From: a bacterium
GTDB taxonomy: Bacteria; Auribacterota; Auribacteria; Auribacterales; Auribacteraceae
Direction of reading: 5' to 3'
DNA: 64,000 bases
Assembly: GCA_018435605.1 (NCBI GenBank)
Contig: JAHDNF010000008.1
Location: forward strand, 1,192 to 65,191
Below are positions 1 through 16,130 of the stretch, one piece after another. Position 1 is the stretch's first letter; the number at the start of each line of letters is the position of its first letter. Under the pieces are notes generated by a model. The model saw only the letters and a list, made by a program, of their open reading frames with translations, ran no database searches and was not told the DNA's origin. A program made the position numbers and the translations under genes.

Positions 1-3000
1 GAATGGGATAATGCAACCCAGACTTGGACATATATTATATATGATTATCCCTTGGAAGACGAGAGGTATGGGTATATAGATCATGACAACAATGGTACGG
101 TCAGCGCTGGTGATCAGCTTGAATCGCGTGCGAAGTTTGATGCTAATGAAAACCTTATTTCTAATACGGTTCTGTTTAGAAGTGGTGGCGCGTACTGGAA
201 TCAGGGAGAAATCCGCACGATAACTCACTATAATTATAATGGTACAATCTCGACCAAAATAAACAAGATGCCACAGGAAGGCTCCGCAGATGGCGATTAT
301 ACCACTTATAATTATAATCGGGATGGTAATCTGTATAGAATAGACCATTTTGATATCAGTGAGGGTAAACTGTTCGCTGATTATTTAATGAATGGTTTTG
401 TTACTATGACGGAGATATACGCAATTACAGTTACAGGTACACCTCCGATCAGAGATGGCAACGTGACTATCGGAGCGTTGTTGGAAGTCATATATAAGAA
501 TACTCAGACGCTACCGGACGGCAGGGTTCGTGTAACAGATCCGGATACAGGCCTGATACAGATATACAATTCACAAGGACAACTGGTAGAGTCTACGGAT
601 AACCAGAAAGTTGTGAATATATATTATTATGATAACGAAGGTAATTTTGTACGTGAAGATAACCTTGGTTACAAGATAGTGTGGTATGGTGATCCTTCCG
701 ATCCTAATACCGGTTACACCGTGTATTATAATCAATTGAACTCTATAACTACGTATGAGTTTACCGTACCGCTGGGACGTGGTAACGAATGGAGAATGAT
801 ACAGAACGAGTATTGGGCTGACGGATTGTTGATCCAGCGTGATTTTGAAACGCAGGATATCATATCGATTGTGAAATATGAGCGCGACTCTCAATCCGAT
901 CTGGTTACGGAAACGGTTATTTATCAGCACAGGCTGAAAACTGTTACTGAGATGAACTGGCCTCAGTCCGGTTGGCGCGCGGTACTTATACCGGGTGGAG
1001 CTGAGAATGATAATGACGCTGTGATGATTATCGACAATACAAATAAATTGCGCGGGTATATGGAAATACTCAAGAGTTCGAGTTATAAATCAACCGGCAA
1101 TATTATTCTCAGTGTAGTCTACGATTATGATACCAGCGGCAACCAAATCGGTTATGTCGATGCGAATAAGGATGGAATCTGGCAATCGAGCACTGAGACA
1201 ACAATGTACAGTTATACCGAAAAATGGAGCGTGGATGAAACCAAAGAGGTTACACGTATCTTTAAAGCCGGAGGCGATATTATAGAGATACGCGATGCGA
1301 CATTTAATGGTAAACTGCGTGCCAAAATAGTGCTTAACGGTACAGGATTCTCTTATGATTACAATAATCCTTTACATGTGGCAACCAGCAACTTGTATTT
1401 ATACAATAGCGACGGTTCGTGGGATATTTATGTAGAAAACACCAATAAAAATGGTATTTTCGACAACGACGGTTCGGAAACCGATACCGGTTACGACGGA
1501 GTTCCCAATGAACGAAGTCATAACGGCGCGATGATGCAAGTACTCGATAACGAAGGGAATATCATATCCAACACCTTCGGAAGCGGATACATGGTCGATT
1601 ATATGTATGACAATGAAGGGAACTATTTGGGAACGCGCGAAACAAGGTATTTCGGCAGTACATATTATTACGACAATGAAGGTAATCCGTATCCTGAAGG
1701 AATCATAGATTATCATGGCAACTATATACATATAGACCCGACATCAGGCTCATATATGAAACATTATAAAGAGTTTGAAACCGATGGAAGCTATTCGGGA
1801 ACATATAACCTATATAGCGGCGGATTGCTGGCTACTCAGATAAATAGCCAAGGCCAGATTACTTATAAGAAGTACACATCCGCAGGTACGACTATTGTAT
1901 TGGAAAACAACGGTGGTGTGGTGCATATAGCCAATCCGTCGAATCCTAGCGATATAGACGCACAGATTCTGGCTGGCGGCGAATATAAAGAGTGGCACGA
2001 TACCGGATATCCGTCTTTGATAGCAGGGTATAATTCCGGAGACGGATCGTTGGTTACCCGTCTTAATTCGTCGGGTTATTATCAGAGTCAGACATTCGTT
2101 GACGGCAGTTTCTATGATACCTCAGGTTCCATTGCCACATATCAATATTATGAGATGGATCACAATTATTTCTATGTGCTAGAGGGTTCAACCCAATACG
2201 TATTCTTTACTCAGGAGTACCCGAATATTGTTCAGAACGTAACAGCCGGCGTATCTTTGACTATTCAGAACAACGGTACTACGCCGACGAATGTTGTGGA
2301 CAATTCGAAAGTATACAAATGGACTGAAGACAGCGGTTCTACTACGGTATACAGATTCAACGGAATCAACCGTTATTTCAATAGTTCCGGAGTATTGCAG
2401 AAGACTGTCTGGTCTGATGCGACCGGTACGGTACAGCGTACTTTAAACTATGGTGCTAGTCTTGGCGGAGGCCTGTTTGAAATTAATTCCGTAGTAGACG
2501 GTAACGGATCAAGTTTAACACTCAACAGATCAGGCAGTACGATTACCGGTTTTGATATTACTGTAGGCACTAATACTACTATTGCTATAAATAGCGCCGG
2601 TAAGACTACTTCAGTCAGTACGTTAGGTCATATTCAGACTTACGACAGTAGCGGTAATGTCACATCAATTACAACTGCCGACGGTCTGGTTCAACTCAGT
2701 TCGAACGGTAAGGTCAATTCGGTAACCGATGTTGACGGAACTACTATGACGTATAACAGAGATGGCGGCGGCAACATTGTCAGTGTAATCGTGGAAGACG
2801 CTACACTGGGCATGAGGCGGTTCTATGAGGTCTTTTCGAGTAACCTGCGGTTATCGTCCGTAACGGAAAGTTCCGGAAGATTGAGCGAATATTATTACAA
2901 TACGTCGGGATCGATACGAACCTATTCCGATGCTACTCCGACTTCATATTCGGTAATCGTAACAGACGGCGATACGGTTTATCGATATGGATACAGGCCT

Positions 3001-3264
3001 GACGGCGGAATACCCGGTTTGTATCTGTATAATGTGACACATCCGGATTATATGTTGACTTATACACGTCATTCAACTTATCCGTACTACATACTAAGTC
3101 AACAGCTTGTCATTTACGGACCTGAAATATCTGGAACACAACATAATATAACTCTGGAATTTTTCGGGTCGAGTTGGAAGACCGGAGGAAACTATCTATA
3201 CGGCGATCTGTATTATATTACAGGAACACGTTTCGGTACGGAATACGCTGTTAAGAATCCTTGA
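1..3264 (+). CDS. YD-repeat (Rhs/teneurin-like) protein, 5'-truncated by the window edge
   Basis: The open frame continues upstream of the first ATG to position 1 with no stop. It has many degenerate YD-type repeats (YDNEGN, YDYDTSGNQIGY, TYDSSGNVTSITTADG, TYNRDGGGNIVSV) and is rich in Tyr/Gly/Asn/Thr. A rho-independent terminator follows. Confidence 0.6.
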   Translation, partial: EWDNATQTWTYIIYDYPLEDERYGYIDHDNNGTVSAGDQLESRAKFDANENLISNTVLFRSGGAYWNQGEIRTITHYNYNGTISTKINKMPQEGSADGDYTTYNYNRDGNLYRIDHFDISEGKLFADYLMNGFVTMTEIYAITVTGTPPIRDGNVTIGALLEVIYKNTQTLPDGRVRVTDPDTGLIQIYNSQGQLVESTDNQKVVNIYYYDNEGNFVREDNLGYKIVWYGDPSDPNTGYTVYYNQLNSITTYEFTVPLGRGNEWRMIQNEYWADGLLIQRDFETQDIISIVKYERDSQSDLVTETVIYQHRLKTVTEMNWPQSGWRAVLIPGGAENDNDAVMIIDNTNKLRGYMEILKSSSYKSTGNIILSVVYDYDTSGNQIGYVDANKDGIWQSSTETTMYSYTEKWSVDETKEVTRIFKAGGDIIEIRDATFNGKLRAKIVLNGTGFSYDYNNPLHVATSNLYLYNSDGSWDIYVENTNKNGIFDNDGSETDTGYDGVPNERSHNGAMMQVLDNEGNIISNTFGSGYMVDYMYDNEGNYLGTRETRYFGSTYYYDNEGNPYPEGIIDYHGNYIHIDPTSGSYMKHYKEFETDGSYSGTYNLYSGGLLATQINSQGQITYKKYTSAGTTIVLENNGGVVHIANPSNPSDIDAQILAGGEYKEWHDTGYPSLIAGYNSGDGSLVTRLNSSGYYQSQTFVDGSFYDTSGSIATYQYYEMDHNYFYVLEGSTQYVFFTQEYPNIVQNVTAGVSLTIQNNGTTPTNVVDNSKVYKWTEDSGSTTVYRFNGINRYFNSSGVLQKTVWSDATGTVQRTLNYGASLGGGLFEINSVVDGNGSSLTLNRSGSTITGFDITVGTNTTIAINSAGKTTSVSTLGHIQTYDSSGNVTSITTADGLVQLSSNGKVNSVTDVDGTTMTYNRDGGGNIVSVIVEDATLGMRRFYEVFSSNLRLSSVTESSGRLSEYYYNTSGSIRTYSDATPTSYSVIVTDGDTVYRYGYRPDGGIPGLYLYNVTHPDYMLTYTRHSTYPYYILSQQLVIYGPEISGTQHNITLEFFGSSWKTGGNYLYGDLYYITGTRFGTEYAVKNP

Positions 3265-4786: not shown

Positions 4787-7783
4787 ATGAGTAAAGAATC
4801 TCTGAAACCTGTTGTGAAACGCATTACCGGGATAGCGTGCCTGTTATTATTATTTGTTATTACCGGTGTTTTTGTCGGTTGCGGAAGTCCTGAGTCAAAA
4901 CAGCAGAAATATATTAAAAAAGCTTTGATTTACGCAAATTTGGGTAAGTTTGAAAAGTCACAGAATGTGATGAAAGCGGCTCTTGAAAAATATCCGGATT
5001 CAGTCGAATTACATTTTAATTACGGAAATATTCTTGCGCGGCAGAAAAAGTTTGAGGCGGCTATTGAGCAGTTCAATACTACTCTTAAACTCGATCCGAA
5101 CCATTATCAGACATACTTGCAGTTGGCGCGTGTGTATGCTGATCAGGAAACTTATGACAAAGCGTTGGAATATGCTGATAAGTCGCTGGCTATAAAAAAT
5201 GATTATGCCGTTGCTTTTGAGTTTCGTGGAGCTGTTCACGAACGGCTGGGTCAAAATGAAGAGGCGCTTAAAGACTATGATAAGTATATCGCACTGAACC
5301 CAAGCAAGCCGGAAGGTTACTTAAGGAAGGCAAGCTTGTTTCTGATAATGAATGATCAAGAGAAAGCAAAAGAACAATGCCTGAAAATTACGAACGATAT
5401 AGAAAAAAGCAATGTACAGGCGATTTTAATTTTGAGTCTGATTTATGACATGGAAGGTAAGATAAATGAAGCTGTGGCGCTTATAGAAGGCGGACTGGCC
5501 GATAAACCGAATTCACTGCAGTTTTTAAATAGGTTAAGTGAATTGTATTTAAAGCAAGGCGATTATGAAAAAGCGATGTCTACTGCTCAAAAAGCGTTAG
5601 CTATTAATTCCAAGGCGGCTGGCGCACGCTATGTTAAAGGATCGGTACATTTTATTCGTCAGGAGTATGAAAAGGCGGCTATAGAATTTGAGAATTTCTT
5701 TGATCCGCCTCCTATTTACGGTGATTTGTTTTACAAACTCGGATTGTGTTATCTTGAAATGGATAAACCCCAGCAGGGTATAAATGAGCTTAAAAAAATG
5801 ATTGAGCGTTCTCCAAACTTTGTGCCTGCTTATTTCACGCTTGCATTTGCGTATTTGCGTGAAGGATGGGCGGACGATGCCATAAAGTTGTGTAAACAGG
5901 GATTGGAGTTGAGTCCGAATAATATAAAAGGGGTAGAGATTCTTGCAAAGGCAAGCATAGCCCAAAAAAACTTTAAGGAAGCGGAAAAATATTTTGATCA
6001 GCTGGTTCAACATCGTCCTGACAATGTCGCTGATATATTAAGTCTGGCATCGCTGAAAATCAACAAGGGCGATATAGATGTTGCGTACGATTTGTGCAAT
6101 CGTGTTCTTGAAATCAACGAGAAAAACGTGAATGCACACAGCCTCAAGGGATTTTGTTATTTACGTCAAGGTAAGATCGACGATGCAATCACTGAATTTA
6201 GAAAAGTGATTGAAATTGATCCTCTAAACATTGGCGGCCATTTGAATCTTGCCAAGATATATTCTTCTGTACAACGGTTTAATGAAGCGGAAGAAGAACT
6301 GCTGAATCTTATCGAACTGAAACCTGATTTCACTGAGGTATTTGCGGAACTGGGAAACCTTTATTTTGTTCAGGGCAAATATGACAAGTCAATAGAGTAT
6401 TACACCCGGATTTTGCAGAATAATCCTCAAGATTTAAAGACAAATATTGCTTTGGCAGGGGCATATTACGCTAAAGATGAATTTAATAAAGCGTTAGCTA
6501 TTTTAGAGCCGTTTCAGAGGAATCCCAAGTTTGATGACAATGTACAGTTACGTTCGTTTCTGGCGACATTGTATTACAAGTTAAATGATCCGGAAAAGGC
6601 GGAACGCGAGTATAAAAAAGTTCTTGCTGTCAACCCTCGTTTTCGTCCTGCTTATGATCTGGGACTCATTTATACGGATCAGGGTAAAACTGAAGAGTCT
6701 ATAGAGATTTACAAACAGGCTTTGAAAATTGATCCGAATTTGACGGATATGATGTTGTATCTAGCTATAGCTCAACAACACACAGGCGATTATGATAAAG
6801 CTGAAGAGACTTTGTCTAGGCTGATAAATATCGAACCGCAGAACTATTCTTTATATTTCATACATATAAATATTCTTGCCGCCAAGGGCGATACAGTAAA
6901 AGCTAAAGAAATACTCGATAAAATTCCCGAGTTGTCAGATGAAATCAGAAATGCATATAACGATGTCATCAAACTAAATCAGACCGATCCTATGCTCGGA
7001 AAAAAATTGACTTATATGCTAAACCAGATGAAGGTATACCGTACTCGCGGATGGACAGATCAGGCTGTCAGCATGGCAAACGAAGCTATTGATATTGTCC
7101 CCGCCAATATACTTCCTATGGCGTTTCTTGTTGAGGTCTATATGGCCGATGGGGATTTGCCGAAAGCACAAGAGATACTCGACAAGATGCTTGTAGTCAA
7201 TGAAAACTCCATTGTTGCCAATTTGCGATATTCACGTTTGCAGGCGATGAGGGGGGATATTAAGAAATCGATCGAATATATGGAGAAGGTCAACACTATT
7301 ACTCCCGATCAATCTTTTCTGCTACTTGATTTGGGTGTGTTGTATGAGCGGGATAATCAGATTGACAAAGCTGTCGAGTTGTATAACAAAGTAATCGAGC
7401 TACAGCCTAACTCTTTCCGCGCAATGAATAATTTGGCTTGGTTATTGACTGAACATAAGAAGGATTATGCAACGGCATTAAACTATGCGGAACAAGCGGC
7501 TGAGCTGGCTCCAAAGAATGGCGCTGTACTCGATACTTACGGATGGATTCTATACATGAAAGGTGATTACGAGAAAGCTATAAGTGTGCTTGAAAGAGCG
7601 GCCGCATATCTGCCCAGTAATCCGACGGTAGCCTATCATCTTGGCAAAGCATTCATTGCTGTAAACAACGAAGAAAAAGCGTTGTTTTCGCTTGAAAAAG
7701 CCATTGATATCAACATCGATTTTCCAGAAAAGGAAGAAACTCTAAAGTTGCTCGAGCAGTTGAAGATGACTCTATCTAAATAA
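4787..7783 (+). CDS. large TPR-repeat lipoprotein
   Basis: GAGGAGG Shine-Dalgarno before the ATG. Signal peptide with lipobox (LLLLFVITGVFVGC|G). More than 20 TPR-like 34-aa repeats (…AxxxYxxAL…P.N…) across 998 aa. Confidence 0.75.
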   Translation: MSKESLKPVVKRITGIACLLLLFVITGVFVGCGSPESKQQKYIKKALIYANLGKFEKSQNVMKAALEKYPDSVELHFNYGNILARQKKFEAAIEQFNTTLKLDPNHYQTYLQLARVYADQETYDKALEYADKSLAIKNDYAVAFEFRGAVHERLGQNEEALKDYDKYIALNPSKPEGYLRKASLFLIMNDQEKAKEQCLKITNDIEKSNVQAILILSLIYDMEGKINEAVALIEGGLADKPNSLQFLNRLSELYLKQGDYEKAMSTAQKALAINSKAAGARYVKGSVHFIRQEYEKAAIEFENFFDPPPIYGDLFYKLGLCYLEMDKPQQGINELKKMIERSPNFVPAYFTLAFAYLREGWADDAIKLCKQGLELSPNNIKGVEILAKASIAQKNFKEAEKYFDQLVQHRPDNVADILSLASLKINKGDIDVAYDLCNRVLEINEKNVNAHSLKGFCYLRQGKIDDAITEFRKVIEIDPLNIGGHLNLAKIYSSVQRFNEAEEELLNLIELKPDFTEVFAELGNLYFVQGKYDKSIEYYTRILQNNPQDLKTNIALAGAYYAKDEFNKALAILEPFQRNPKFDDNVQLRSFLATLYYKLNDPEKAEREYKKVLAVNPRFRPAYDLGLIYTDQGKTEESIEIYKQALKIDPNLTDMMLYLAIAQQHTGDYDKAEETLSRLINIEPQNYSLYFIHINILAAKGDTVKAKEILDKIPELSDEIRNAYNDVIKLNQTDPMLGKKLTYMLNQMKVYRTRGWTDQAVSMANEAIDIVPANILPMAFLVEVYMADGDLPKAQEILDKMLVVNENSIVANLRYSRLQAMRGDIKKSIEYMEKVNTITPDQSFLLLDLGVLYERDNQIDKAVELYNKVIELQPNSFRAMNNLAWLLTEHKKDYATALNYAEQAAELAPKNGAVLDTYGWILYMKGDYEKAISVLERAAAYLPSNPTVAYHLGKAFIAVNNEEKALFSLEKAIDINIDFPEKEETLKLLEQLKMTLSK

Positions 7784-7802: not shown

Positions 7803-7841
7803 CAAGCCGGACGGATCTTTTATCTGTCCGGCTTTTTTTTA
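7803..7841. terminator. bidirectional rho-independent terminator
   Basis: aagccggacggatc-ttttatc-tgtccggc followed by tttttttt; sits between convergent genes. Confidence 0.75.
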
Positions 7842-7984: not shown

Positions 7985-10900
7985 TTATAAACTTGCGGCA
8001 AAGGCAGAACGTGCTTTGTTAATAATTTGTAAGCGATGTAGATGAGGTGCAAGTTGTTGGGGAGTGATCCCGGGAGCGACATATTCGAACTGAACATTAT
8101 AATCATTCATAAAGGAAGCGATTAGAGAATTTTCAATTTCAACCATTTCATCAAGCAAAATACGTTGCGAAGTATATTCGTAACCTGTAGTAGACATAAT
8201 ACGCACTACATGTGCCTGAAAGCGTATTAATTTCGCTAGGTTATCTATGGAAGCTCCTTTAACAACAGCTAAATATGCTCTATAAAACGCTTCGCTGGAT
8301 AAAAATAAGTTCGCACCGTAACCGCGTTTGATATTTTCACCTTCAATTTCCAGATGATCATTGAATCGCAGTAAGAACGGTACAGGTGAGTCCATAGTCC
8401 ATCCTTTGCTGGATATGAGCCATATGCCGACATAATTGAGGTCATCGATAGCATTGACATCTCTGGAATCCTTTTTGAAGTAGTCATATATCTTTTCTAC
8501 CATATCGTGACCCCAGTTGAAATCTTCTATATGATTTATATAAAAATTTGTGTCATCCGGGTCGAGGGCGCGCTGTATTACTTTTAAATTGTGTACACTG
8601 TATTCTGTTTTAAGATGTTCCATAATTTTACCGCCCAGATTTTCAAGTGTTAAAATGATTTGATACGCCCTATTGTCAGATTGTACATGCGGTATAGAAG
8701 ATAGTTGTCTCGGAGTAGTTGGCGGCTGTTCCTGATCGGCCAGAACTATTTTTTCCGCGAGATCGGGGTATAGTTTGGTCAATGAAGTATGTTGAGTCTT
8801 ATTCCAGATAAGAACTTTTTCCGATTTTGCGATATACGCCTTTATGTTTGGATCGGATAGCATTTCATTAGAAGTAGGTAATTTATCGTCCGGCATAATG
8901 ACAACTATGTATGTTTTGGACGGCGGTCTTGGGAATGAATGGATGCCAAAGTAAACGGATATGTCGATATCCGGCGACCATGGTGTGGTTGGAAATTTAA
9001 AGTCTATACTCCGAGATTGCAGTTCAGCACGGGCGGACTGAGTATCCAAGTCGAAGAAATAATCCAATCCGAAAATACCCCATCTAGCAAACGATTTAAT
9101 CAGAGGCTCCAAACTTTTAGGAGCCGGTTTATCAGAATTTACGCTTGTGGTTACTTCTTTATTAACTGAGGCGTGTAAATCATATTTACGTTGTACGTAG
9201 TAAAGTTTTTGCATTTGCGTAGTTTGACCTGATTTCTTAGTCATAACATAATCCAGCATGGTGGTATACGCTTTTTGCGCCGCCTCGAAATCGTTTTGGA
9301 GCGGCGGGGATGTAAGAAAATTCAAGTATGTTTCTACCCCTGCTCGGTCGGCAACCATGTTTACAAATGAATATTTGGTGGATTTTGTGTTTTGCCGAGT
9401 AAAGAGATTGATAGTTAAGTCTTTTACGAGGAATTCGTTATATCCAAGATAATGATATTCTGTCAGCCGTACTCCGGGCACTCCTCTTGCAAGCGGCATA
9501 TCTAATGCGCCAGAATTGGTTCCTGTGGCGAATGTACCGCGTCCAAGGATTGCGGCTTGCTCTGGTAATGTGAATGTTCTTTGAAATTTGTTGTGACGAA
9601 GTTGCCATGCGTTGGTGAAGTCAATCAAATCAGGGTCGTTATCGATCATAATTTGTAATTCTCTGGCTATTTTTACTAGATCGAAAGTCAAAGATTTTAT
9701 ACGATCAATATACGATGTTTTAGCCGGAATTCGTTCGATGCGAGCGAGTTCATCAAGCAATTGGTCTATGAAAGTTTGCGGCGAATTGCCGAAAAAGATT
9801 ATTTTAGGTGATTTTCCTGTTTTCTGGAATGTAAGAGTTTTTAAGAGATTGATAAAACGGATTGTATCATAAAGATTGCTGTTGCGAACCGCTTCTGTAA
9901 GTTGCATATCGAGACGTAAACTAAACGGAATAATGATATCTTCATCTGTGTTTATATCAAGTGATTGGTAAAATTCATCTGCCAGCCTTTCGTCAGTGTC
10001 GGAGACTGGAAAATCCACAGGTTGTTTCATATCAAAAAAAGATGAAGCGTAGACGTTAGTTGCTTCATTTGGTAATTCGGGATGATGTTTAGAAAAGTCG
10101 TAGCCCGCTACAAACAGTTCCAGAGGATATGATTTCAAGATATTTTTATCGTTATCTATAATGTTTTGAATAACCAATTCCCACAAGACGCGCGGAGGGT
10201 CTTTTTGGCGGAAATGGCTCATGATGTTCATCTGGTCATGTACCAAAGGGTTGATCGGATCAATCCAAATAACCTCGTCGATGACTCCTTCAAGTTGTTG
10301 CATAACAAAATTTCTATTGGTCGGTATATCGAATAAGACAATAGATAGATACTCATCAGGATTTTTTTTACGGATTCCACGGATGGCGTGCATCCAGCGA
10401 ATGGAAGAACCCACTCCATCCGCAAAAAATGGAAGAATCGCTATATTTTTGCGAGGTCGGTCGTTTAGCGATTCGAACCTATAGCAAGACTGCATTTTTG
10501 ATTTGGTTATGGAAACTATATTATCAGGGGCATTGATATCTTCAACTATGATATGACTGTTTGTTTCTGTAATAAAAAACCTTGCCTCAGCGTTTGACAC
10601 TGTTCTGCGAAAGAAAAATTCTCTGTGTTTTATGTCAAGAGTATGCGCGGCCAATCCCTTCCAAAACAGGTTTATATATCGTAAGTCATTACCGCTTGGT
10701 TCTGAATATGATACATTGTTGTCAAGCGCGTCGCGTTTAAGCAGTCTTCTAAATCGTTTAAGATTTTCCTCTGACATGGATGCGTATTCAACGGTATTCA
10801 ATCCGTAATATGATGTTGATGCGTAAGGAGGCCGGATACTTTGTTTCGAAATATCTTCAGGTATAAAAGCCAGCAGGTCTGGAGGGGAATCAAGTATAAT

Positions 10901-12793
10901 CATATAGCGTTTGGAGCGTTCATCGGGATCGTTGAACTGGCGTATTGAAGTTTGTATCAAAGCGAATGCCGATTTGAGTTTATCTTTCAATGGTGAATAG
11001 GTTAGACGAAACGCAAGATTGTCAATTATTTCTTGTGTCATTCCGTCGATTCCTGAAGACAGCTCAGCGGCCAGTATTTCTTCAGGTAGTGCGAACAGCG
11101 CGTCAATGTCGACATTTTCAAGATTAGAAATGACAGTTGCCCGTCCTTCGGCGATAGCGGTCTGTATTTGAGGAGGTACTAAGTTTTTTTCAAATGTTTT
11201 ATCTCGTAATTCGTTTGCCAGTGCAGTTTCAACCGGCGTACCGCGTGTAGCCTGAAAATCTAGAAATTGTTCGTTGCGGGAAATAAGGAATTGATGTGAT
11301 GCTTTATTCCTGAAGATATCTATATAATCGCATGTCGGTTCTGCGGCGCCGAAGTGAGGCGATACAACCGCGTATGAAATATTTTCTTCTTTAAAAAAAT
11401 TTATAAGCGAATCCCTGTGAAAACCACCGAGTATGACAACTGCAACAGAATGTTTAGACTCGGTTATATAAGTATGTAGTTGGCGGATAAAAAAATCATC
11501 CCGAGCTATAGCCAGCCGATAAAAACGATCGATTTTATCGAGTAGCTCTAAAGAAAATACCGGCGGTTTAGGAACATCGCATGGGATAAGATGATCGTCG
11601 GCTATAGACTGTAATATTGCAGGCCAAAGCATGGGCTGAAATGTGTCGATGTGATCTGTATAGTAGATATATTCGTTTCTTGTAAGCTGAAGTGTGAGTA
11701 GCCGTTTATAAGTGAAAATATTATCTGACAGCTGTTTTAAGGAACTCTGATCGGATGTGGTGATAAGGGTATCGTAGAGTTTTAGTTCCAGAAGTTGCAT
11801 TTCGTCGGCTATAGACAGCATATCTATTTCGTCCATAGCTGTGAATACATCGTAGAATTCTTTTATAGAAGGTTCATCAAAAAGGTTTCCCGATCGTTGC
11901 TGTATCTGTGTAATTAAATCGGCAACATTATCGAGCGATTCCAATATGACTTGTTTGTGTAAGTCGTTCCAATTCTCGTATAGATCGGGGTTGTCTTCTT
12001 TTATTTTTGTCAGATGCTCATTGATTGAGGTGCGCAGTTGGATTTCGTTGAGTTTCTTTAAATAGTCAATATATTGTACGAACAGCCCGATATTGGGATA
12101 ATCTTTTGTCATCAAGCCATTTGTAACGCATTTGTCATTAAGATACGGCAAAAAATCGTTTATGGTGATGTTTCCGCTGTGATACCTTCGACAGTGCATG
12201 TCGAATTCCAGTAATTGAGGCGAAAAGACATCTTTTTTTACGATATCGACTTTGTTGTTTAACTCATCAAGAAAAGGACTGAGTAGTTCGCTGACAGCGA
12301 GAGTGTCAAACAGTGCGTTGACGTTATCGAGATACAGCGATTGATTTTCAATTCCGGTAATGGTAAATGTATAATCTGCATTAATATCAAGAAACTCTTC
12401 GCCGGAAATAAATCCTTTTTTCAAATAATCTATAGATACATTTTCCCTAATTTCTTTTGTAGCTATCGGGCGTAAGTGACTCAGATTTAAGTTTCCGGAA
12501 CCGCCTTCCGTAAAAACCTGATTGACGCTGAAGTTGGTTATAAGATAATCCAGCAGATTGGCTATATTGCGCTGGGCTTCGTGGTTGTAATGGAAATCAT
12601 TGACAATTATAAACTTATGAGCGCTTTGCGTTTCGTGTTTAGATTGTACGGCCGCGTATTTATCGGGTATCAATGAGCTCAAAGTTCTGGAATTATCTGA
12701 TGCGTAAGAATCGAAATAAGATTCCATCAAAAGGAAAAAGAACAACCATGAGCAAGCAGTAAGTAAATATTTTTTAGGTATGTTGATTAGCAT
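7985..12793 (-). CDS. giant (1602 aa) N-terminally anchored/secreted multidomain protein with an internal GT-B (GT9 heptosyltransferase-like) domain; function unknown
   Basis: Single uninterrupted ORF. N-terminal hydrophobic segment (LLTACSWLFFFLLM). Internal region around aa 780-1110 carries the N-terminal GT9 motif (NIAILPFFADGVGSSIRWMHAIRGIRKKNPDEYLSIVL, compare IL.IRLS.LGD...P..RALK...P.A.I..L) and the C-terminal motif (GTNSGALDMPLARGVPGVRL, compare NDSG.MHLAAAL..P.V.LFGP). The rest has no recognisable similarity. Confidence 0.6.
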   Translation of the reverse strand: MLINIPKKYLLTACSWLFFFLLMESYFDSYASDNSRTLSSLIPDKYAAVQSKHETQSAHKFIIVNDFHYNHEAQRNIANLLDYLITNFSVNQVFTEGGSGNLNLSHLRPIATKEIRENVSIDYLKKGFISGEEFLDINADYTFTITGIENQSLYLDNVNALFDTLAVSELLSPFLDELNNKVDIVKKDVFSPQLLEFDMHCRRYHSGNITINDFLPYLNDKCVTNGLMTKDYPNIGLFVQYIDYLKKLNEIQLRTSINEHLTKIKEDNPDLYENWNDLHKQVILESLDNVADLITQIQQRSGNLFDEPSIKEFYDVFTAMDEIDMLSIADEMQLLELKLYDTLITTSDQSSLKQLSDNIFTYKRLLTLQLTRNEYIYYTDHIDTFQPMLWPAILQSIADDHLIPCDVPKPPVFSLELLDKIDRFYRLAIARDDFFIRQLHTYITESKHSVAVVILGGFHRDSLINFFKEENISYAVVSPHFGAAEPTCDYIDIFRNKASHQFLISRNEQFLDFQATRGTPVETALANELRDKTFEKNLVPPQIQTAIAEGRATVISNLENVDIDALFALPEEILAAELSSGIDGMTQEIIDNLAFRLTYSPLKDKLKSAFALIQTSIRQFNDPDERSKRYMIILDSPPDLLAFIPEDISKQSIRPPYASTSYYGLNTVEYASMSEENLKRFRRLLKRDALDNNVSYSEPSGNDLRYINLFWKGLAAHTLDIKHREFFFRRTVSNAEARFFITETNSHIIVEDINAPDNIVSITKSKMQSCYRFESLNDRPRKNIAILPFFADGVGSSIRWMHAIRGIRKKNPDEYLSIVLFDIPTNRNFVMQQLEGVIDEVIWIDPINPLVHDQMNIMSHFRQKDPPRVLWELVIQNIIDNDKNILKSYPLELFVAGYDFSKHHPELPNEATNVYASSFFDMKQPVDFPVSDTDERLADEFYQSLDINTDEDIIIPFSLRLDMQLTEAVRNSNLYDTIRFINLLKTLTFQKTGKSPKIIFFGNSPQTFIDQLLDELARIERIPAKTSYIDRIKSLTFDLVKIARELQIMIDNDPDLIDFTNAWQLRHNKFQRTFTLPEQAAILGRGTFATGTNSGALDMPLARGVPGVRLTEYHYLGYNEFLVKDLTINLFTRQNTKSTKYSFVNMVADRAGVETYLNFLTSPPLQNDFEAAQKAYTTMLDYVMTKKSGQTTQMQKLYYVQRKYDLHASVNKEVTTSVNSDKPAPKSLEPLIKSFARWGIFGLDYFFDLDTQSARAELQSRSIDFKFPTTPWSPDIDISVYFGIHSFPRPPSKTYIVVIMPDDKLPTSNEMLSDPNIKAYIAKSEKVLIWNKTQHTSLTKLYPDLAEKIVLADQEQPPTTPRQLSSIPHVQSDNRAYQIILTLENLGGKIMEHLKTEYSVHNLKVIQRALDPDDTNFYINHIEDFNWGHDMVEKIYDYFKKDSRDVNAIDDLNYVGIWLISSKGWTMDSPVPFLLRFNDHLEIEGENIKRGYGANLFLSSEAFYRAYLAVVKGASIDNLAKLIRFQAHVVRIMSTTGYEYTSQRILLDEMVEIENSLIASFMNDYNVQFEYVAPGITPQQLAPHLHRLQIINKARSAFAASL

Positions 12794-12930
12794 CGGCGTG
12801 TCCCGATAAAATATTATTGGTGTATAATGTTTTTTATTTAGTTATATTATACTATATTTTTTACAAAAAAGGAAAATAGATGGTATATAAATAAAGGTCT
12901 ATTTTTATTCGAGGTTTTAAGAAAAGAAAA

Positions 12931-13003
12931 AGCGAGCGAAGGGATTCGAACCCTCGACAGCCAGCTTGGGAAGCTGGAACTCTACCAACTGAGTTACGCT
13001 CGC
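12931..13003 (-). tRNA. tRNA-Gly (anticodon CCC)
   Basis: Reverse complement folds as a canonical cloverleaf: GCGAGCG acceptor stem, D-arm ACTC/GAGT, anticodon stem CCAGC/GCTGG with loop TTCCCAA, T-arm GAGGG-TTCGAAT-CCCTT, discriminator U. No encoded CCA. Confidence 0.85.
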
Positions 13004-13083
13004 TTTGCAAAAGATATATACAATATAGTATTTATATTAAGTTTATCCGTCAATAAAAATCAGCTGTAAATTACCGGTCTTAG

Positions 13084-14007
13084 CTAGCGATTTACAAATT
13101 CATGTAGCGACGATTTTCGAATCAAATCCTGCAAACGCTCTTCGATAGCATGTTCGGTCAGCCCGAATAGATTGTTCATGCTGAAATCTTGGACGTTGAA
13201 AGATGCCATAACTGTGCCGTATGCCATTGCTTTTTTCAATGTCATTGTGTCGGTTTTGCCGGATTTACAGATATATCCGAGCATTCCGCCGGCAAACGTG
13301 TCGCCTGCGCCTGTGGGGTCTACCACTGTTTCGAGAGGGTAGGCTGGAACTGTGAATATATCGTCGCCATGTACAAGCAATGCTCCGTGTTCACCTTTTT
13401 TTACCACAACAGACTTAGGACCGTATGATTGAATTGCTCTGGCGGCTTTTATGATGTTATCGGATTCCGTGAGCATTTTGGCTTCAGCATCGTTGAGCAC
13501 GATTAGATCGATTTTCCCGAGCAATTTAATCAATTGCGGTTTCTTGTAGTTGATCCATAGATTCATGGTATCGCAAGCGACAAATTTGGGAGATCGAGTA
13601 AGATTAAGTACATCAAGTTGTAATTCCGGATTAATATTCGCTAGAAAAACGTATGGAGTGTCTTTGTATGATTCGGGCAATTCGGGTTTGAAATTTTCAA
13701 AGACATTCAGTTCAGTTGATAATGTTTCCGCTTCGTTGAGATTTTGCATATAACTTCCTGCCCATCGGAATGTTTTTCCGGGTTGTCGTACAAGACCGGT
13801 TGTGTCGATATTTCTTTTTTTAAGCATATCGATATGTTTCTGTGGAAAATCTTCGCCGATAACTGCCACGAGTTTTACAGGAACGAAAAAACTGGCTGAG
13901 TAAGAAAAGTATGTCGCCGAGCCTCCGAGTGATTCATCTCGTTCTCCTGCTGGAGTTTGTACATGATCAAACGCGACAGATCCTACTACAAGCAGACTAT
14001 TATCCAT
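13084..14007 (-). CDS. PfkB/ribokinase-family sugar kinase (candidate heptose-7-phosphate kinase by context)
   Basis: N-terminal LLVVGSVAFDH and C-terminal PfkB signature DPTGAGDTFAGG. Overlaps thiE by 8 nt in the same operon as gmhA and hldE domain II. Confidence 0.7.
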   Translation of the reverse strand: MDNSLLVVGSVAFDHVQTPAGERDESLGGSATYFSYSASFFVPVKLVAVIGEDFPQKHIDMLKKRNIDTTGLVRQPGKTFRWAGSYMQNLNEAETLSTELNVFENFKPELPESYKDTPYVFLANINPELQLDVLNLTRSPKFVACDTMNLWINYKKPQLIKLLGKIDLIVLNDAEAKMLTESDNIIKAARAIQSYGPKSVVVKKGEHGALLVHGDDIFTVPAYPLETVVDPTGAGDTFAGGMLGYICKSGKTDTMTLKKAMAYGTVMASFNVQDFSMNNLFGLTEHAIEERLQDLIRKSSLHEFVNR

Positions 14008-14647
14008 TTATCTCACCTTTAAGTTGTTGTTTAAATTGGGTAACTTTTTCATATTTATCATTGGCTTGGAGTATGGCCGAAACAACGGCCACTCTGTTTA
14101 TGCCATATTCGGTAATTTTGTTTAAACGGGCAAGGGCAACACCGCCGACGGCGAATACCGGTATATCGATGGTATTTACGACTTGTGCCGCGACATCGAT
14201 TCCGATAGCGGTGTATTCGGGTTTAGTTCCTGTAGCGAATAAAGGGCCTATAGCTATGTAATCGGGATTGAGAATACGGGTATGTAGAGCCTGATCTGCA
14301 GAATGAGTGGATGCACCTATAATAATTTTTTTTCCATATTGATCAGCTATTGAACGCGCTACAGGGACAGGCAAGTCGTCTTGCCCCAGATGAACTCCGT
14401 CCGCGTCGGACGCGAGAGCCAGATCAAGCCGGTTGTTGACAATAAACGGTATCGAATAAGAAGCTGTTATTTCTTTGAGTTGACAACAGATATTTAAAGC
14501 GTGGGCATCGCTTAGTGAATAATCCCTAAATTGAATAATATCCACCCCCGCTTCACAGCATTCGCGAGCGATTTCGCACAGACACTCTGCACCGATGTAC
14601 ATGGTGTCCAAAATTAGATAGAGATGCCTATTTTTTAGTGAGAGCAT
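14000..14647 (-). CDS. thiE: thiamine-phosphate synthase
   Basis: ThiE motifs present: FIVNNRLDLAL...DGVHLGQDD...GASTHS...DYIAIGPLFATGTKP...VGGV. Confidence 0.8.
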   Translation of the reverse strand: MLSLKNRHLYLILDTMYIGAECLCEIARECCEAGVDIIQFRDYSLSDAHALNICCQLKEITASYSIPFIVNNRLDLALASDADGVHLGQDDLPVPVARSIADQYGKKIIIGASTHSADQALHTRILNPDYIAIGPLFATGTKPEYTAIGIDVAAQVVNTIDIPVFAVGGVALARLNKITEYGINRVAVVSAILQANDKYEKVTQFKQQLKGEING

Positions 14648-15053
14648 ATTTTATCATTTTCTCCAGTGTATATACTTCAAACCGCAATTCTTTAATATCG
14701 GCTACGGGACGCGGACATATCAACTTCAAAAATTCTTCGATTACCCGCATAGCTTCTTCAACCCTCCGGCAGTTGGCTTCAACCAGTGAATCTATGGACT
14801 GACGGTTTCCCTCCAGATGGGGAATATATTCTTTTCCGACGTCTTCACTGCTTTCCCTGCTGGCAGTGATGCCGGATATCTCTGAGCGGAGCTCTTTTTC
14901 CAATTCACAAAATGAATGGCGTATTGTTTTTATCTGAGCGTATATGGATTTATCGTCCAGAAGGAATCGGCCTATTTCTTCTATAACGCGAAGGCCTTCG
15001 CGTGTTCTGTTACAGTTGGCGTCTATGATTCGCTTGATTTTGTCATCTATCAT
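14628..15053 (-). CDS. ThiD2-family protein (the N-terminal accessory domain of some ThiE proteins, here a separate gene)
   Basis: Contains IIDANCNRTREGLRVIEEIGRF. A second similar motif (VEANCRRVEEAMRVIEEF) suggests an internal duplication. Overlaps thiE by 20 nt. Confidence 0.5.
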   Translation of the reverse strand: MIDDKIKRIIDANCNRTREGLRVIEEIGRFLLDDKSIYAQIKTIRHSFCELEKELRSEISGITASRESSEDVGKEYIPHLEGNRQSIDSLVEANCRRVEEAMRVIEEFLKLICPRPVADIKELRFEVYTLEKMIKYALTKK

Positions 15054-15543
15054 TAGCGCAGTATCTTTCTATGATTGTCTGTATTATATTTCTTGTAGCT
15101 TTGCCTTGAACCAGTTCGATTGTTTTAACAATTCCGCCCCAGCTTTCAACTTCGTTTCTGCCGACAATGGTATCGAGCGTATAGTCAGCCCCTTTGATGA
15201 GTATGTTAGGTCGTAATGTCGTTATAAGAGTATAAGGTGTTTCTTCGTCGAAAGGCACAACGTAATCGACCATTTCCAGAGCGGCAAGTATTTCGGCTCG
15301 TTCTACAAGAGGTACTATAGGACGTAGCGGGCCTTTGTTAAGCTGTACGGAATAATCCGTATTCAGACCGACTACTAAAATATCACCGTGCTGTTTACAT
15401 TGGCGTAAATAGCTGATATGGCCTACATGAATCAAATCAAAACAGCCGTTTGTAAATACGATAACAGCGCCATGTCTTTTTTTATCTTCAAGGATTGGAG
15501 CTAATTGGGAACAGTTGAATATTTTTCCGTTCATGACGCTCAT
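15043..15543 (-). CDS. hldC: D-glycero-beta-D-manno-heptose-1-phosphate adenylyltransferase (stand-alone HldE domain II / RfaE2)
   Basis: VFTNGCFDLIHVGHISYL ... ILIKGADY ... ATRNIIQ closely mirrors E. coli HldE residues 344-477 and the cytidylyltransferase HxGH motif. Confidence 0.8.
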   Translation of the reverse strand: MSVMNGKIFNCSQLAPILEDKKRHGAVIVFTNGCFDLIHVGHISYLRQCKQHGDILVVGLNTDYSVQLNKGPLRPIVPLVERAEILAALEMVDYVVPFDEETPYTLITTLRPNILIKGADYTLDTIVGRNEVESWGGIVKTIELVQGKATRNIIQTIIERYCANDR

Positions 15544-16130
15544 GTACCTGCCGGCTTGGAATGGCAGACGTGCATTTGTTCGACAAGATCGCAGATAAGA
15601 TGCTCTATCATTAGATGCATTTCCTGAATTATAGGGGTCGAATCAGAGGGTATTACGATTGCCATATCGGACAAAGCCAGCATATCTCCGCCTGTTTTGC
15701 CTGTAAGTGATATGGTAACACATTGTTTTTCCTTGGCGGCAATCAAAGCCTGTGTAATGTTGGGGGATGTGCCGCTTGTAGAAATAGCCAATAGAATATC
15801 GTTCGGATTGGCAAGGGCTTCAATCTGTTTGCTGAAAATTTTATCAAAAGAATAATCATTGCTGATTGATGTAATAACCGATGTGTCTGTTGTTAAAGAG
15901 ATAGCCGGCAGGGGAGACCGTTCTCTGCGGAAACGATTAACAAATTCCGCCGCGATATGCTGGGCATCCGAAGCGCTTCCGCCGTTACCGCAAATCATTA
16001 ATTTCCCGCCATGAGAAATTTGTTTATAAATTATTTTTGCAACATCTGATATAGAATCGGTTAATGTGCTTAAAACTATTTCGGTTACGCGCTGGTGTTC
16101 TTTTATGTAATTAGTAATTGAGGAGCGCAT
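15540..16130 (-). CDS. gmhA: phosphoheptose (sedoheptulose-7-phosphate) isomerase, SIS domain
   Basis: GGKLMICGNGGSASDAQHIAAEF and the rest of the SIS fold pattern; ATGA 4-nt overlap with hldC. Confidence 0.85.
   Translation of the reverse strand: MRSSITNYIKEHQRVTEIVLSTLTDSISDVAKIIYKQISHGGKLMICGNGGSASDAQHIAAEFVNRFRRERSPLPAISLTTDTSVITSISNDYSFDKIFSKQIEALANPNDILLAISTSGTSPNITQALIAAKEKQCVTISLTGKTGGDMLALSDMAIVIPSDSTPIIQEMHLMIEHLICDLVEQMHVCHSKPAGT

What the first reader, a model, noticed from the sequence alone, without database searches (positions are those of the whole stretch)
7985..12793. 1602-aa anchored giant protein with an internal GT9-like (heptosyltransferase-like) glycosyltransferase domain, next to ADP-heptose biosynthesis genes
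The window's largest ORF has an N-terminal hydrophobic anchor or signal and roughly 1250 residues with no similarity I can recognise. Around aa 780-1110 (about nt 9460-10450) it carries both hallmark motifs of GT9 heptosyltransferases. The N-terminal motif is KNIAILPFFADGVGSSIRWMHAIRGIRKKNPDEYLSIVL, and the C-terminal motif is GTNSGALDMPLARGVPGVRL in NDSG.MHLAAAL..P.V.L-like spacing, with the usual His replaced by Asp. It is transcribed just downstream of tRNA-Gly and the gmhA-hldC-thiD2-thiE-pfkB operon, and converges on a 998-aa TPR lipoprotein. A GT9 domain embedded in a protein of this size is not a described LPS-core enzyme layout. It could be a novel protein- or polysaccharide-heptosylating machine, by analogy to the separate BAHT autotransporter heptosyltransferases, or a scaffold with a degenerate GT-B fold.
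Basis: partly seen in the sequence, partly recalled or inferred. Interest (0 to 1): 0.78.

Follow-up and report, generated by a model that had tools for sequence, protein, structure and literature searches.

The report
Exported protein with divergent GT9-like domain
The window's largest gene, from an uncultured Auribacterota bacterium, encodes a probably secreted 1602-residue protein that joins a hydrolase-like head to a very divergent sugar-transferase-like domain; that domain is real, but nothing ties it to the heptose genes next door.

Summary
The internal domain (aa ~745-1165) is a GT-B fold, and its nearest solved relatives are GT9 heptosyltransferases (Foldseek E 2.6e-11 to 2e-6). A weak profile-profile match to GT9 is specific to that family. 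No Pfam, NCBIfam or PDB sequence model detects the domain. The GT9 catalytic Asp is Ser in this protein, and both heptose-contacting residues (WaaC D261 and H266) are replaced in every family member. The gmhA-hldC adjacency appears only in a close relative. It is absent from the 42-46% identical orthologues as far as their flanks are held, and from the Omnitrophota and stand-alone homologues.

The N-terminal "unrecognisable" part is a signal peptide followed by a module with the TIKI/TraB/erythromycin-esterase/ChaN fold. That module keeps a His-Glu-His constellation and carries a 295-residue helical insert. The same head sits on other large exported proteins with different payloads.

My best reading is an exported two-enzyme-like modular protein, restricted to Auribacterota and Omnitrophota, and not an ADP-heptose machine. 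Its substrate, and whether the domain is catalytically active, remain unknown. Interest is moderate.

The parts
7985..12793 (-). Whole ORF, 1602 aa. It is identical to a hypothetical protein of a Candidatus Auribacterota MAG.
   Evidence: P0001, 100% identity. Full-length orthologues at 42-60% identity: P0002-5, P0009-10, L008, L010, L017.
12701..12793 (-). Probable Sec signal peptide, aa 1-31: KK n-region, hydrophobic LLTACSWLFFFLLM, and SYA|SD as the likely cleavage site.
   Evidence: The same n-h-c layout occurs in all orthologues and in the distant homologues P0006-8, P0014 and P0025. No SignalP-type predictor was available.
11294..12682 (-). N-terminal module, aa 38-500: a small alpha/beta core of the TIKI/TraB/erythromycin-esterase/ChaN fold.
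12590..12601 (-). NDFH motif, aa 65-68 (D66, H68). It corresponds to the GExH / GTxH motif of the TIKI superfamily.
   Evidence: H68 is conserved in every sequence that covers it. D66 is Asp in all but P0007, which has Ser. Motif definition from PMC6254334.
12500..12511 (-). TEGG motif, aa 95-98. E96 lies 28 residues after H68, the same spacing as RRSP H3902-E3930 and Bcr135 H85-E113.
11417..11428 (-). GGFH motif, aa 456-459 (H459 invariant), the GxxH motif of TIKI/TraB proteins.
   Evidence: Invariant G419, G420 and H422 of alignment A6. This is the only stretch that hhalign aligns with E. coli TraB-family YbaP (GALH), and it does so in register.
11459..12343 (-). All-helical insertion of about 295 aa (aa 151-445) inside the TIKI-like core. 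It is the least conserved part of the protein.
   Evidence: Secondary structure of the model. Mean pairwise identity among the orthologues is 31%.
10562..11293 (-). Linker region, aa 501-744, fold unknown. Part of it (about aa 542-725) is shared with a partial 905-aa protein labelled Thermoproteota archaeon (P0018).
   Evidence: No hhalign similarity to the other parts of the protein.
9299..10561 (-). GT9-like GT-B domain, aa 745-1165: two Rossmann-like halves preceded by a small beta unit.
   Evidence: AF2 model pLDDT 80.5, pTM 0.78. Foldseek against PDB: 3tov (GT9) E 2.6e-11, WaaF 1psw 2.1e-9, WaaC 2h1h 2.4e-6, TibC 1.3e-4. hhalign against E. coli WaaC/F/U/Q: 38-51% probability, E 1.5-3.4e-4.
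10334..10450 (-). First-Rossmann motif, aa 782-820. GVGSS (aa 793-797) occupies the place of the GT9 'G-D' motif, with S796 at the position of WaaC Asp13.
   Evidence: The Omnitrophota and stand-alone homologues have GVGD, GLGD or GIGD here.
9875..9922 (-). SLRLD...VRNSN, aa 958-973. It holds the family-invariant R960 and R970; R970 aligns with WaaC Lys192, the pyrophosphate and heptose ligand.
   Evidence: Invariant R216 and R226 of alignment A3. hhalign register. Role of Lys192 from bioRxiv 10.1101/2021.06.16.448588.
9629..9778 (-). Two-helix insertion, aa 1006-1055, in the second Rossmann half. It is absent from the stand-alone homologues and expanded to a roughly 150-aa coiled-coil-like stretch in P0013.
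9464..9523 (-). Donor-site-like motif GTNSGALDMPLARGVPGVRL, aa 1091-1110. N1093 aligns with WaaC D261 and D1098 with WaaC H266. It lies in the most conserved stretch of the protein.
   Evidence: hhalign register. G, N, G, D, G, P and R are invariant across all 13 family members. Residues 1056-1130 show 78% mean pairwise identity and 61% invariant columns among 7 orthologues.
7988..9298 (-). C-terminal region, aa 1166-1602, no recognisable fold or family. Its first ~180 residues align at about 25% identity with the Omnitrophota homologues.
   Evidence: No hit in Pfam, NCBIfam or the PDB sequence search. In the exhaustive profile search, only orthologues cover it. tblastn extends to aa 1342 in L015/L016.
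7804..7834 (.). Stem-loop with a 13-bp stem and T-runs, between the convergent giant ORF and the TPR gene. It is a probable bidirectional terminator.

Best explanation
The gene encodes a modular protein that is most likely exported through Sec, and its architecture is shown. After a cleavable signal peptide comes a head module with the TIKI/TraB/erythromycin-esterase/ChaN fold. This head keeps the superfamily's catalytic-type constellation (D66-x-H68, E96, H459) and carries a 295-residue helical insertion. Then follow a roughly 240-residue linker, a highly divergent GT-B domain whose nearest known relatives are GT9 heptosyltransferases, and a 437-residue orphan tail. The same head is found on other large signal-peptide proteins of Auribacterota and Omnitrophota with different downstream parts. 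These include a methyltransferase plus GNAT, sigma-70-like regions, and parts of unknown type. The head therefore looks like a constant module, and the GT9-like domain like one of several payloads.

The mechanism is inferred. The head acts as a hydrolase (esterase or peptidase, possibly processing the protein itself or a surface or target substrate). The GT-B domain binds a phosphorylated sugar ligand through the invariant R960, R970, N1093-S-G and D1098, and either transfers or merely binds a sugar on an extracytoplasmic or foreign-cell target. It is not a canonical ADP-heptose:LPS heptosyltransferase. It is also not functionally coupled to the neighbouring gmhA-hldC genes; that adjacency is synteny shared only with a close relative.
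Confidence: 0.55

Rival explanations
1. The embedded GT9 domain is an active heptosyltransferase that uses ADP-heptose supplied by the adjacent gmhA-hldC genes to heptosylate a protein or polysaccharide, as a BAHT-like or new heptosylating machine.
For: GT9 structures are the best fold matches, and TibC is also hit. The profile match is GT9-specific. gmhA and hldC lie 2.2-3.3 kb upstream on the same strand, and this arrangement is kept in L008. A basic residue (R970) is retained at the Lys192 position.
Against: Asp13, described as strictly conserved in heptosyltransferase I homologues, is Ser796 here. The heptose ligands D261 and H266 are Asn and Asp in all 13 members. No heptose genes lie near the orthologues at 42-46% identity or near any distant homologue. 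The pfkB gene in the operon is a generic sugar kinase, not the heptose kinase. The predicted signal peptide puts the domain away from ADP-heptose. There is no autotransporter neighbour. The domain has only one Cys (C770), so it cannot carry the Cys-based iron site I recall for TibC.
Confidence: 0.1
2. The GT9-like domain is a pseudo-enzyme. It would be a non-catalytic GT-B module used as a ligand-binding or structural unit within an exported envelope or surface protein.
For: The catalytic-base Asp is lost in all Auribacterota orthologues, which have GVGSS where the outgroups have GVGD. Among the best fold matches are subunits of the chloroplast NDH complex (9grx_1, 7wff_a). I believe these are the non-enzymatic PnsB1 subunit, but that identification is from memory and unverified. 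An extracytoplasmic location lacks nucleotide-sugar donors.
Against: The donor-site-like motif is the most conserved stretch of the whole protein. It retains invariant Arg, Asn and Asp residues suited to binding a sugar phosphate. An invariant Asp (D792) sits three residues before the lost one and might substitute for it. Homologues with an intact G-D motif also carry signal peptides (P0014, P0025), so export and a complete catalytic motif coexist in this family.
Confidence: 0.25
3. The N-terminal hydrophobic stretch is an uncleaved membrane anchor and the bulk of the protein faces the cytoplasm. There the GT-B domain would be an active transferase, using an unknown nucleotide sugar to build an envelope glycan or glycolipid.
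For: This removes the donor-supply problem. In Omnitrophota, many long multi-enzyme proteins are predicted to be membrane-anchored with cytoplasmic domains. The stand-alone homologues P0015-17 and P0019 have no signal peptide and are presumably cytoplasmic.
Against: The positive charges (K7, K8) precede the hydrophobic stretch, which by the positive-inside rule puts the C-terminal bulk outside. The h-region is short (about 13-16 residues, no 19-aa window above KD 1.6 in the window protein). It is followed by small-residue AxA-like sites in the orthologues, and P0006-8 and P0025 have classical signal peptides.
Confidence: 0.1

Closest known systems
GT9 LPS heptosyltransferases (WaaC/HepI, WaaF/HepII; PDB 2gt1/2h1h, 1psw; Veillonella GT9 3tov; Pfam PF01075)
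   Same: The fold is the same two-Rossmann GT-B fold, and these are the best structural matches. The motif layout agrees: strand-loop-helix 'G-x' at the start, a basic residue at the Lys192 position, and the loop G-x-(D/N)-(S/T)-G-x-x-(H/D)...P in the second half.
   Different: Not detected by PF01075 or any NCBIfam model. Asp13 is Ser, D261 is Asn and H266 is Asp. The domain has extra helical insertions. It is embedded at aa 745-1165 of a 1602-aa signal-peptide protein, whereas these enzymes are roughly 320-350-aa cytoplasmic proteins. No LPS-core gene context is conserved.
BAHT autotransporter heptosyltransferases (TibC, Aah; PDB 4rap)
   Same: They are GT9-related GT-B enzymes that act on proteins rather than on LPS. 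TibC appears among the fold matches at E 1.3e-4.
   Different: TibC matches far more weakly than the LPS-type GT9 structures. There is no adjacent autotransporter substrate gene. The domain has a single Cys, so it cannot carry the Cys-based iron site I recall for TibC (from memory, not tested further). The ADP-heptose-contacting residues are not conserved.
TIKI/TraB/GumN/ChaN/erythromycin-esterase superfamily (EreC 6xcq, Bcr135/136 2rad/2qgm, ChaN 2g5g, RRSP 5w6l, PMT 2ebf, HopBA1 5t09)
   Different: No Pfam model for TraB, Ere or ChaN hits it. The first acidic residue is Asp rather than Glu. A 295-residue helical insertion splits the core. Catalytic activity is untested.
Long signal-peptide or membrane-anchored multi-enzyme proteins of Omnitrophota (bioRxiv 10.64898/2026.06.07.730766, and West-Roberts et al. 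2023 as cited there)
   Same: The nearest non-orthologous relatives (P0013, P0014, P0025, P0028) come from Omnitrophota MAGs. The design principle is the same: a signal peptide followed by normally cytoplasmic enzyme domains such as methyltransferase, GNAT and glycosyltransferase.
   Different: This protein is far smaller (1.6 kaa, against 10 kaa or more). It has no TM helices beyond the N-terminus. The TIKI-like head and the GT9-like payload were not among the terms I found in that paper.

Membership tests
GT9 (CAZy) / Pfam PF01075 Glyco_transf_9 | Match to the family sequence model at its curated threshold | tested here: not met
   The full protein has no Pfam or NCBIfam hit at E<=10. None of the 13 domain homologues hits PF01075 at E<=10. 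A PDB sequence-profile search with A3 finds nothing at E<=10.
GT9 (CAZy) / Pfam PF01075 Glyco_transf_9 | GT-B two-Rossmann fold with GT9 structures as nearest neighbours | tested here: met
   Foldseek: 3tov E 2.6e-11, 1psw 2.1e-9, 2h1h 2.4e-6. The next families (GT4 WaaG, UDP-GlcNAc 2-epimerases) are at 1.6e-5 or worse. TM-scores are only 0.39-0.56, as expected with insertions and an open or closed domain angle.
GT9 (CAZy) / Pfam PF01075 Glyco_transf_9 | Profile-profile sequence similarity to bona fide GT9 enzymes | tested here: inconclusive
   hhalign of A3 against E. coli WaaC/F/U/Q gives probability 38-51% and E 1.5-3.4e-4, confidently aligned in the C-terminal half only. Controls are 0.1-8%. 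The GT9 profile was thin, with only 4 sequences.
GT9 (CAZy) / Pfam PF01075 Glyco_transf_9 | Catalytic base Asp in the N-terminal G-D motif (WaaC Asp13, reported as strictly conserved) | tested here: not met
   The window protein and all its orthologues have GVGSS, with S796 at that position. The Omnitrophota and stand-alone homologues have GVGD, GLGD or GIGD. Role of Asp13. This part of the hhalign alignment has low confidence, so the register rests on motif and topology.
GT9 (CAZy) / Pfam PF01075 Glyco_transf_9 | ADP-heptose-binding residues (WaaC Lys192, Asp261, His266) | tested here: not met
   The Lys192 position is Arg970 (conservative). The Asp261 position is Asn1093 and the His266 position is Asp1098, both invariant in all 13 members.
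GT9 (CAZy) / Pfam PF01075 Glyco_transf_9 | Genomic association with ADP-heptose synthesis or LPS-core genes | tested here: not met
   The association is present only in the window and in L008. It was not found in L001, L003 (upstream), L009, L010, L015/L016, L017, or beside the stand-alone homologues in L005, L006 and L011. Several of these contigs are short, so their flanks are partial.
GT9 (CAZy) / Pfam PF01075 Glyco_transf_9 | Heptosyl transfer from ADP-heptose (enzymatic activity) | not testable with these tools
   This needs a biochemical assay.
BAHT (TibC/Aah) protein heptosyltransferases | Adjacent autotransporter substrate gene, and a closer relationship to TibC than to LPS-type GT9 | tested here: not met
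   The neighbours are tRNA-Gly, pfkB and a TPR lipoprotein. TibC scores E 1.3e-4, against 2.6e-11 for 3tov.
TIKI/TraB/Ere/ChaN superfamily (N-terminal module) | Characteristic alpha/beta core fold | tested here: met
TIKI/TraB/Ere/ChaN superfamily (N-terminal module) | 2His/2Glu catalytic motif (GExH ... E ... GxxH) | tested here: inconclusive
   H68, E96 and H459 are conserved in every sequence covering them. The first acidic residue is Asp66, or Ser in P0007. The spacing matches RRSP and Bcr135.
TIKI/TraB/Ere/ChaN superfamily (N-terminal module) | Match to the Pfam TraB, Erythro_esteras or Cofac_haem_bdg models, or profile similarity to a member | tested here: not met
   No Pfam hit at E<=10. 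hhalign against E. coli YbaP gives 0.4% probability, with only GGFH/GALH aligned.

The most novel reading that the evidence does not exclude
Auribacterota and Omnitrophota may share an undescribed family of Sec-exported modular proteins. A constant TIKI-like hydrolase head would be fused to interchangeable enzyme payloads: the GT9-like GT-B domain here, methyltransferase plus GNAT, sigma-70-like regions, and others. That would make them polymorphic effectors delivered to the cell surface or into other cells. In this reading the GT9-like payload is an active glycosyltransferase of a new GT-B family. It would use the target cell's nucleotide sugars to modify a foreign macromolecule, and the head would process or activate the protein.
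Probability: 0.15. Interest if true: 0.75.

Novelty: new variant of a known kind. Interest (0 to 1): 0.45.

Why it matters
If the domain is active, it defines a new GT-B family branching near GT9. That family is invisible to current sequence models. It has only 11 relatives, orthologues and fragments included, among 1.84 billion representative proteins, and it is placed in an exported protein where nucleotide-sugar donors are not expected. It would join the few GT-B enzymes proposed to act outside the producer's cytoplasm. The shared TIKI-like head on different payloads gives a concrete handle on how the little-known Auribacterota and Omnitrophota build their large secreted multi-enzyme proteins. 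For genome annotation the practical lesson is negative: proximity to gmhA-hldC here is not evidence of heptose chemistry.

Tried and rejected
Sequence libraries:
- Pfam, NCBIfam and PADLOC scans of the full protein gave nothing, even at E<=10. A Pfam scan of the 13 GT-like domain homologues and scans of the distant giants also gave nothing for these modules; only P0008's methyltransferase and GNAT domains were hit.
- PDB sequence searches with the protein, with the domain profiles and with the C-terminus gave only noise.

Wider homologue searches:
- The search for homologous proteins with the domain alignments returned only 3 hits and 1 hit. The tool scores only a capped set of word-sharing candidates, which probably explains this.
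- With the orthologue alignment, it found only 3 genome loci and 1 metagenome locus.

Fold and profile tests:
- hhalign of the N-module against E. coli TraB-family YbaP was not significant.
- Internal duplication was rejected: the C-terminus and the linker show no similarity to the GT-like domain, the N-module, GT9 or GT4.

Context tests:
- A genomic-island origin at the tRNA-Gly was rejected, because GC content is uniform at 0.37-0.44 across the region.
- No canonical GT9 gene elsewhere in the window by tblastn with WaaC, WaaF, WaaQ and WaaU.
- No conserved partner gene across lineages.
- The contexts of the stand-alone homologues are uninformative. They hold an EamA transporter, His_Phos_1, a small methyltransferase, GT2 and an NTP-transferase, all at some distance.

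Literature: searches for PnsB1 as a GT9-like protein found nothing usable. The Auribacterota paper mentions neither heptose nor large proteins.
Full report
**1. The observation**

The ORF at 7985-12793 on the minus strand is real. It is 1602 aa, starts at the first possible ATG, and is the longest ORF in the window. It is identical to a hypothetical protein of a Candidatus Auribacterota MAG. Full-length orthologues at 42-60% identity exist in other Auribacterota assemblies, so it is a conserved gene and not an artefact.

The surroundings are also as described:
- tRNA-Gly(CCC) at 12930-13004.
- Upstream on the same strand, pfkB, thiE, thiD2, hldC (TIGR02199, above its cut-off) and gmhA (just below its cut-off).
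- A convergent 998-aa TPR protein with a lipobox-like FVGC. It is separated from the ORF by a stem-loop with a 13-bp stem at 7804-7834.

**2. Is the GT9-like domain real?**

Sequence libraries do not see it. The protein has no Pfam, NCBIfam, PADLOC or PDB sequence hit even at E<=10. None of 13 homologous domains hits Pfam PF01075.

An exhaustive profile search of 1.84 billion representative proteins with aa 560-1602 found only 11 relatives. Some are orthologues or fragments of them. Two are large Omnitrophota proteins (P0013, P0014). Three are stand-alone proteins of 413-555 aa (P0015-17) that match just this domain.

With the 13-sequence alignment (A3), AlphaFold2 gave a confident model (pLDDT 80.5, pTM 0.78). 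Foldseek against the PDB put GT9 structures first:

| Structure | E-value |
|---|---|
| Veillonella GT9, 3tov | 2.6e-11 |
| WaaF, 1psw | 2.1e-9 |
| WaaC, 2h1h | 2.4e-6 |
| GT4 WaaG | 1.6e-5 |
| UDP-GlcNAc 2-epimerases | 2e-5 and weaker |
| TibC, 4rap | 1.3e-4 |

Two chains from chloroplast NDH supercomplex entries also ranked high.

A profile-profile comparison with E. coli WaaC/F/U/Q gave 38-51% probability (E 1.5-3.4e-4). The C-terminal Rossmann half aligned in register. Controls scored far lower: GT4 0.1%, GT30 0.3%, GT9 against GT4 0.6%, GT9 against GT30 8%, and the other parts of this protein below 4%.

**3. Is it a heptosyltransferase?**

Three independent lines say probably not.

*Catalytic and donor residues.* In heptosyltransferase I, Asp13 is the catalytic base and is described as strictly conserved. 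The heptose hydroxyls bind Lys192, Asp261 and His266 (bioRxiv 10.1101/2021.06.16.448588). Here the G-D motif reads GVGSS, with Ser796, in all Auribacterota orthologues. The Omnitrophota and stand-alone homologues keep GVGD, GLGD or GIGD. The Lys192 position is Arg970. The Asp261 position is Asn1093 and the His266 position is Asp1098, and both are invariant in all 13 members.

*Gene neighbourhood.* gmhA and hldC are adjacent only in the window and in the syntenic 61%-identical relative L008. In L003 the upstream side holds a transposase and an integrase. L001 and L017 (42-43% identity) carry 10 kb of flank on both sides and contain no heptose genes. The partial flanks held for L009 and L010 show none either. 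The Omnitrophota loci and the stand-alone homologues have none. No gene is a conserved neighbour across lineages.

*Location.* The N-terminus has lysines, a short hydrophobic stretch and small residues (SYA|SD). That layout recurs in every orthologue. It becomes a textbook signal peptide in P0006-8 and P0025. No other hydrophobic segment exists, so the domain most likely lies outside the cytoplasm, away from ADP-heptose.

In addition, the pfkB gene in the upstream operon is a generic sugar kinase and not the heptose kinase. A tRNA gene and a 136-nt AT-rich spacer separate the operon from the ORF.

**4. What the rest of the protein is**

Residues 38-500 are shared with other large signal-peptide proteins:
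- P0006 (1978 aa).
- P0007 (2108 aa).
- P0008 (2631 aa), which also carries methyltransferase and GNAT domains.
- P0014 and P0025.
- A 2196-aa protein with sigma-70-like Pfam hits, next to the P0004 orthologue in L001.

The AF2 model of this module is confident (pLDDT 90.4). It has a small alpha/beta core split by a 295-residue all-helical insertion. Foldseek found nothing significant, because the helices dominate.

The superfamily's catalytic 2His/2Glu motif (PMC6254334) has counterparts here. These are D66-x-H68 after the first core strand, E96 exactly 28 residues later (the same spacing as in RRSP and Bcr135), and GGFH459. H68, E96 and H459 are conserved in all sequences that cover them. 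A profile comparison with E. coli TraB-family YbaP was not significant. The only stretch it aligned was GGFH with GALH, in register.

I could not access model coordinates, so the spatial clustering of these residues is inferred.

The linker (aa 501-744) and the C-terminal 437 residues remain unassigned.

**5. Conservation pattern**

Among seven orthologues, the two enzyme-like cores are the best conserved parts:

| Region | Mean pairwise identity |
|---|---|
| TIKI-like core | 50-55% |
| Helical insert (aa 151-445) | 31% |
| GT-like domain | 54-78% |
| C-terminal tail (aa 1211-1602) | 39% |

The maximum lies in aa 1056-1130, the stretch around the donor-site-like motif, with 78% identity and 61% invariant columns. 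This argues that the site is functional, either for binding or for catalysis. It does not look like a decaying relic.

**6. How it most likely works**

*Shown.* The architecture is signal peptide, TIKI/Ere-fold head, linker, GT9-like GT-B domain and orphan tail. The family is restricted to Auribacterota and Omnitrophota. The head recurs with other payloads. There is no conserved partner gene and no conserved heptose context.

*Inferred.* The protein is exported. The head is a hydrolase (esterase or peptidase, possibly self-processing). The GT-B domain binds a phosphorylated sugar ligand through R960, R970, N1093 and D1098, and either transfers or only binds a sugar on an extracytoplasmic or foreign-cell target.

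The donor-supply problem for an exported Leloir-type enzyme is the main weakness. It can be resolved in three ways:
- action inside another cell, as an effector;
- a non-catalytic binding role, as a pseudo-enzyme;
- a cytoplasm-facing topology, which the N-terminal charge distribution disfavours.

A recent preprint on Omnitrophota reports the same paradox on a larger scale. There, signal-peptide proteins carry methyltransferase, GNAT and glycosyltransferase domains on the outer face, and they are read as possible extracellular effectors (bioRxiv 10.64898/2026.06.07.730766).

**7. Comparison and novelty**

The domain works like, and is distantly related to, GT9 enzymes. It fails the family's sequence model, its catalytic Asp, its heptose-binding residues and its genomic context, so I do not file it as a GT9 member or as a BAHT. 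The head has the TIKI-superfamily fold and motif layout but matches none of that superfamily's sequence models.

I found no description of the combination of a TIKI-like head and a GT9-like payload in an exported protein. One Omnitrophota homologue is simply labelled 'glycosyltransferase' by NCBI.

I rate it a new variant of known kinds. Interest is moderate (0.45): there is a real structural surprise and a tidy modular family, but no substrate, no phenotype, and the attractive heptose story is not supported.

Noticed in passing
L001 16300-22890 (-): Two genes downstream of the 42%-identical orthologue P0004 lies a 2196-aa protein. It has a classical signal peptide, the same TIKI-like N-module (local hmmsearch E 3.5e-82) and precomputed Pfam hits to sigma-70 regions 2, 3 and 4. 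That is an odd payload for an exported protein.
   Followed up: partly
L015 1-7917 (Omnitrophota MAG contig DAORGS010000067.1): Two large proteins lie in tandem. P0028 has the N-module plus the GT9-like domain. The gene before it, cut by the contig end, belongs to the 90% cluster of P0013/P0025, which have the same architecture. P0028 is named 'glycosyltransferase' by NCBI (HNV86990.1), although no Pfam or NCBIfam model hits it here.
   Followed up: partly
P0008 / P0021 (2631 aa, Logan assemblies): A signal-peptide protein with the same N-module carries a SAM-methyltransferase domain (PF08241, aa ~1414-1523) and a GNAT domain (PF00583, aa ~2197-2262). Enzymes that depend on cytoplasmic cofactors therefore sit behind an export signal here too.
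   Followed up: partly
P0018 (905 aa, partial, labelled Thermoproteota archaeon, MFC1755574.1): It shares only the linker region of the ORF (about aa 542-725, hmmsearch domain E 2.9e-16). This part may therefore be an independent mobile domain of unknown function.
   Followed up: no
window 13084-16130 (-): thiD2 and thiE (thiamine salvage and synthesis) are nested between hldC-gmhA and a generic pfkB sugar kinase, in a tightly packed and partly overlapping gene string that is conserved in L008. The heptose-type and thiamine genes make an unusual mixture, and the pfkB product is not the heptose-7-phosphate kinase by NCBIfam score.
   Followed up: partly
window 7804-7834: A stem-loop with a 13-bp stem (7 G-C pairs) and T-runs lies between the convergent giant ORF and the TPR gene. 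It looks like a bidirectional intrinsic terminator.
   Followed up: no
window 52-3264 (+): A 1070-aa ORF has no Pfam hit and only a weak YD-repeat NCBIfam match (aa 862-880). It is 70% identical in L008.
   Followed up: no
window 4787-7783 (+): The 998-aa TPR lipoprotein scores above the cut-off for the XrtA/PEP-CTERM system TPR protein PrsT (TIGR02917, 409 bits against 312). This hints at a PEP-CTERM or exopolysaccharide system in this genome. It is conserved next to the giant gene only in the close relatives L003 and L008.
   Followed up: partly
L003 621-5358: In the 60%-identical orthologue's contig, the upstream side holds a phage-type integrase, a GNAT gene and a Transposase_mut gene in place of the tRNA and gmhA operon. 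The region upstream of the giant gene is therefore a rearrangement point.
   Followed up: no
P0015, P0016, P0017/P0030, P0019 (stand-alone homologues, 413-555 aa): After the GT9-like domain these proteins carry a C-terminal extension of 120-140 aa, with a conserved K-G-(V/I)-(F/I)-P...G-Y-G...Y-L...T-G pattern. By eye it resembles the end of a GT4-type Rossmann domain, and it is absent from the giant protein.
   Followed up: no
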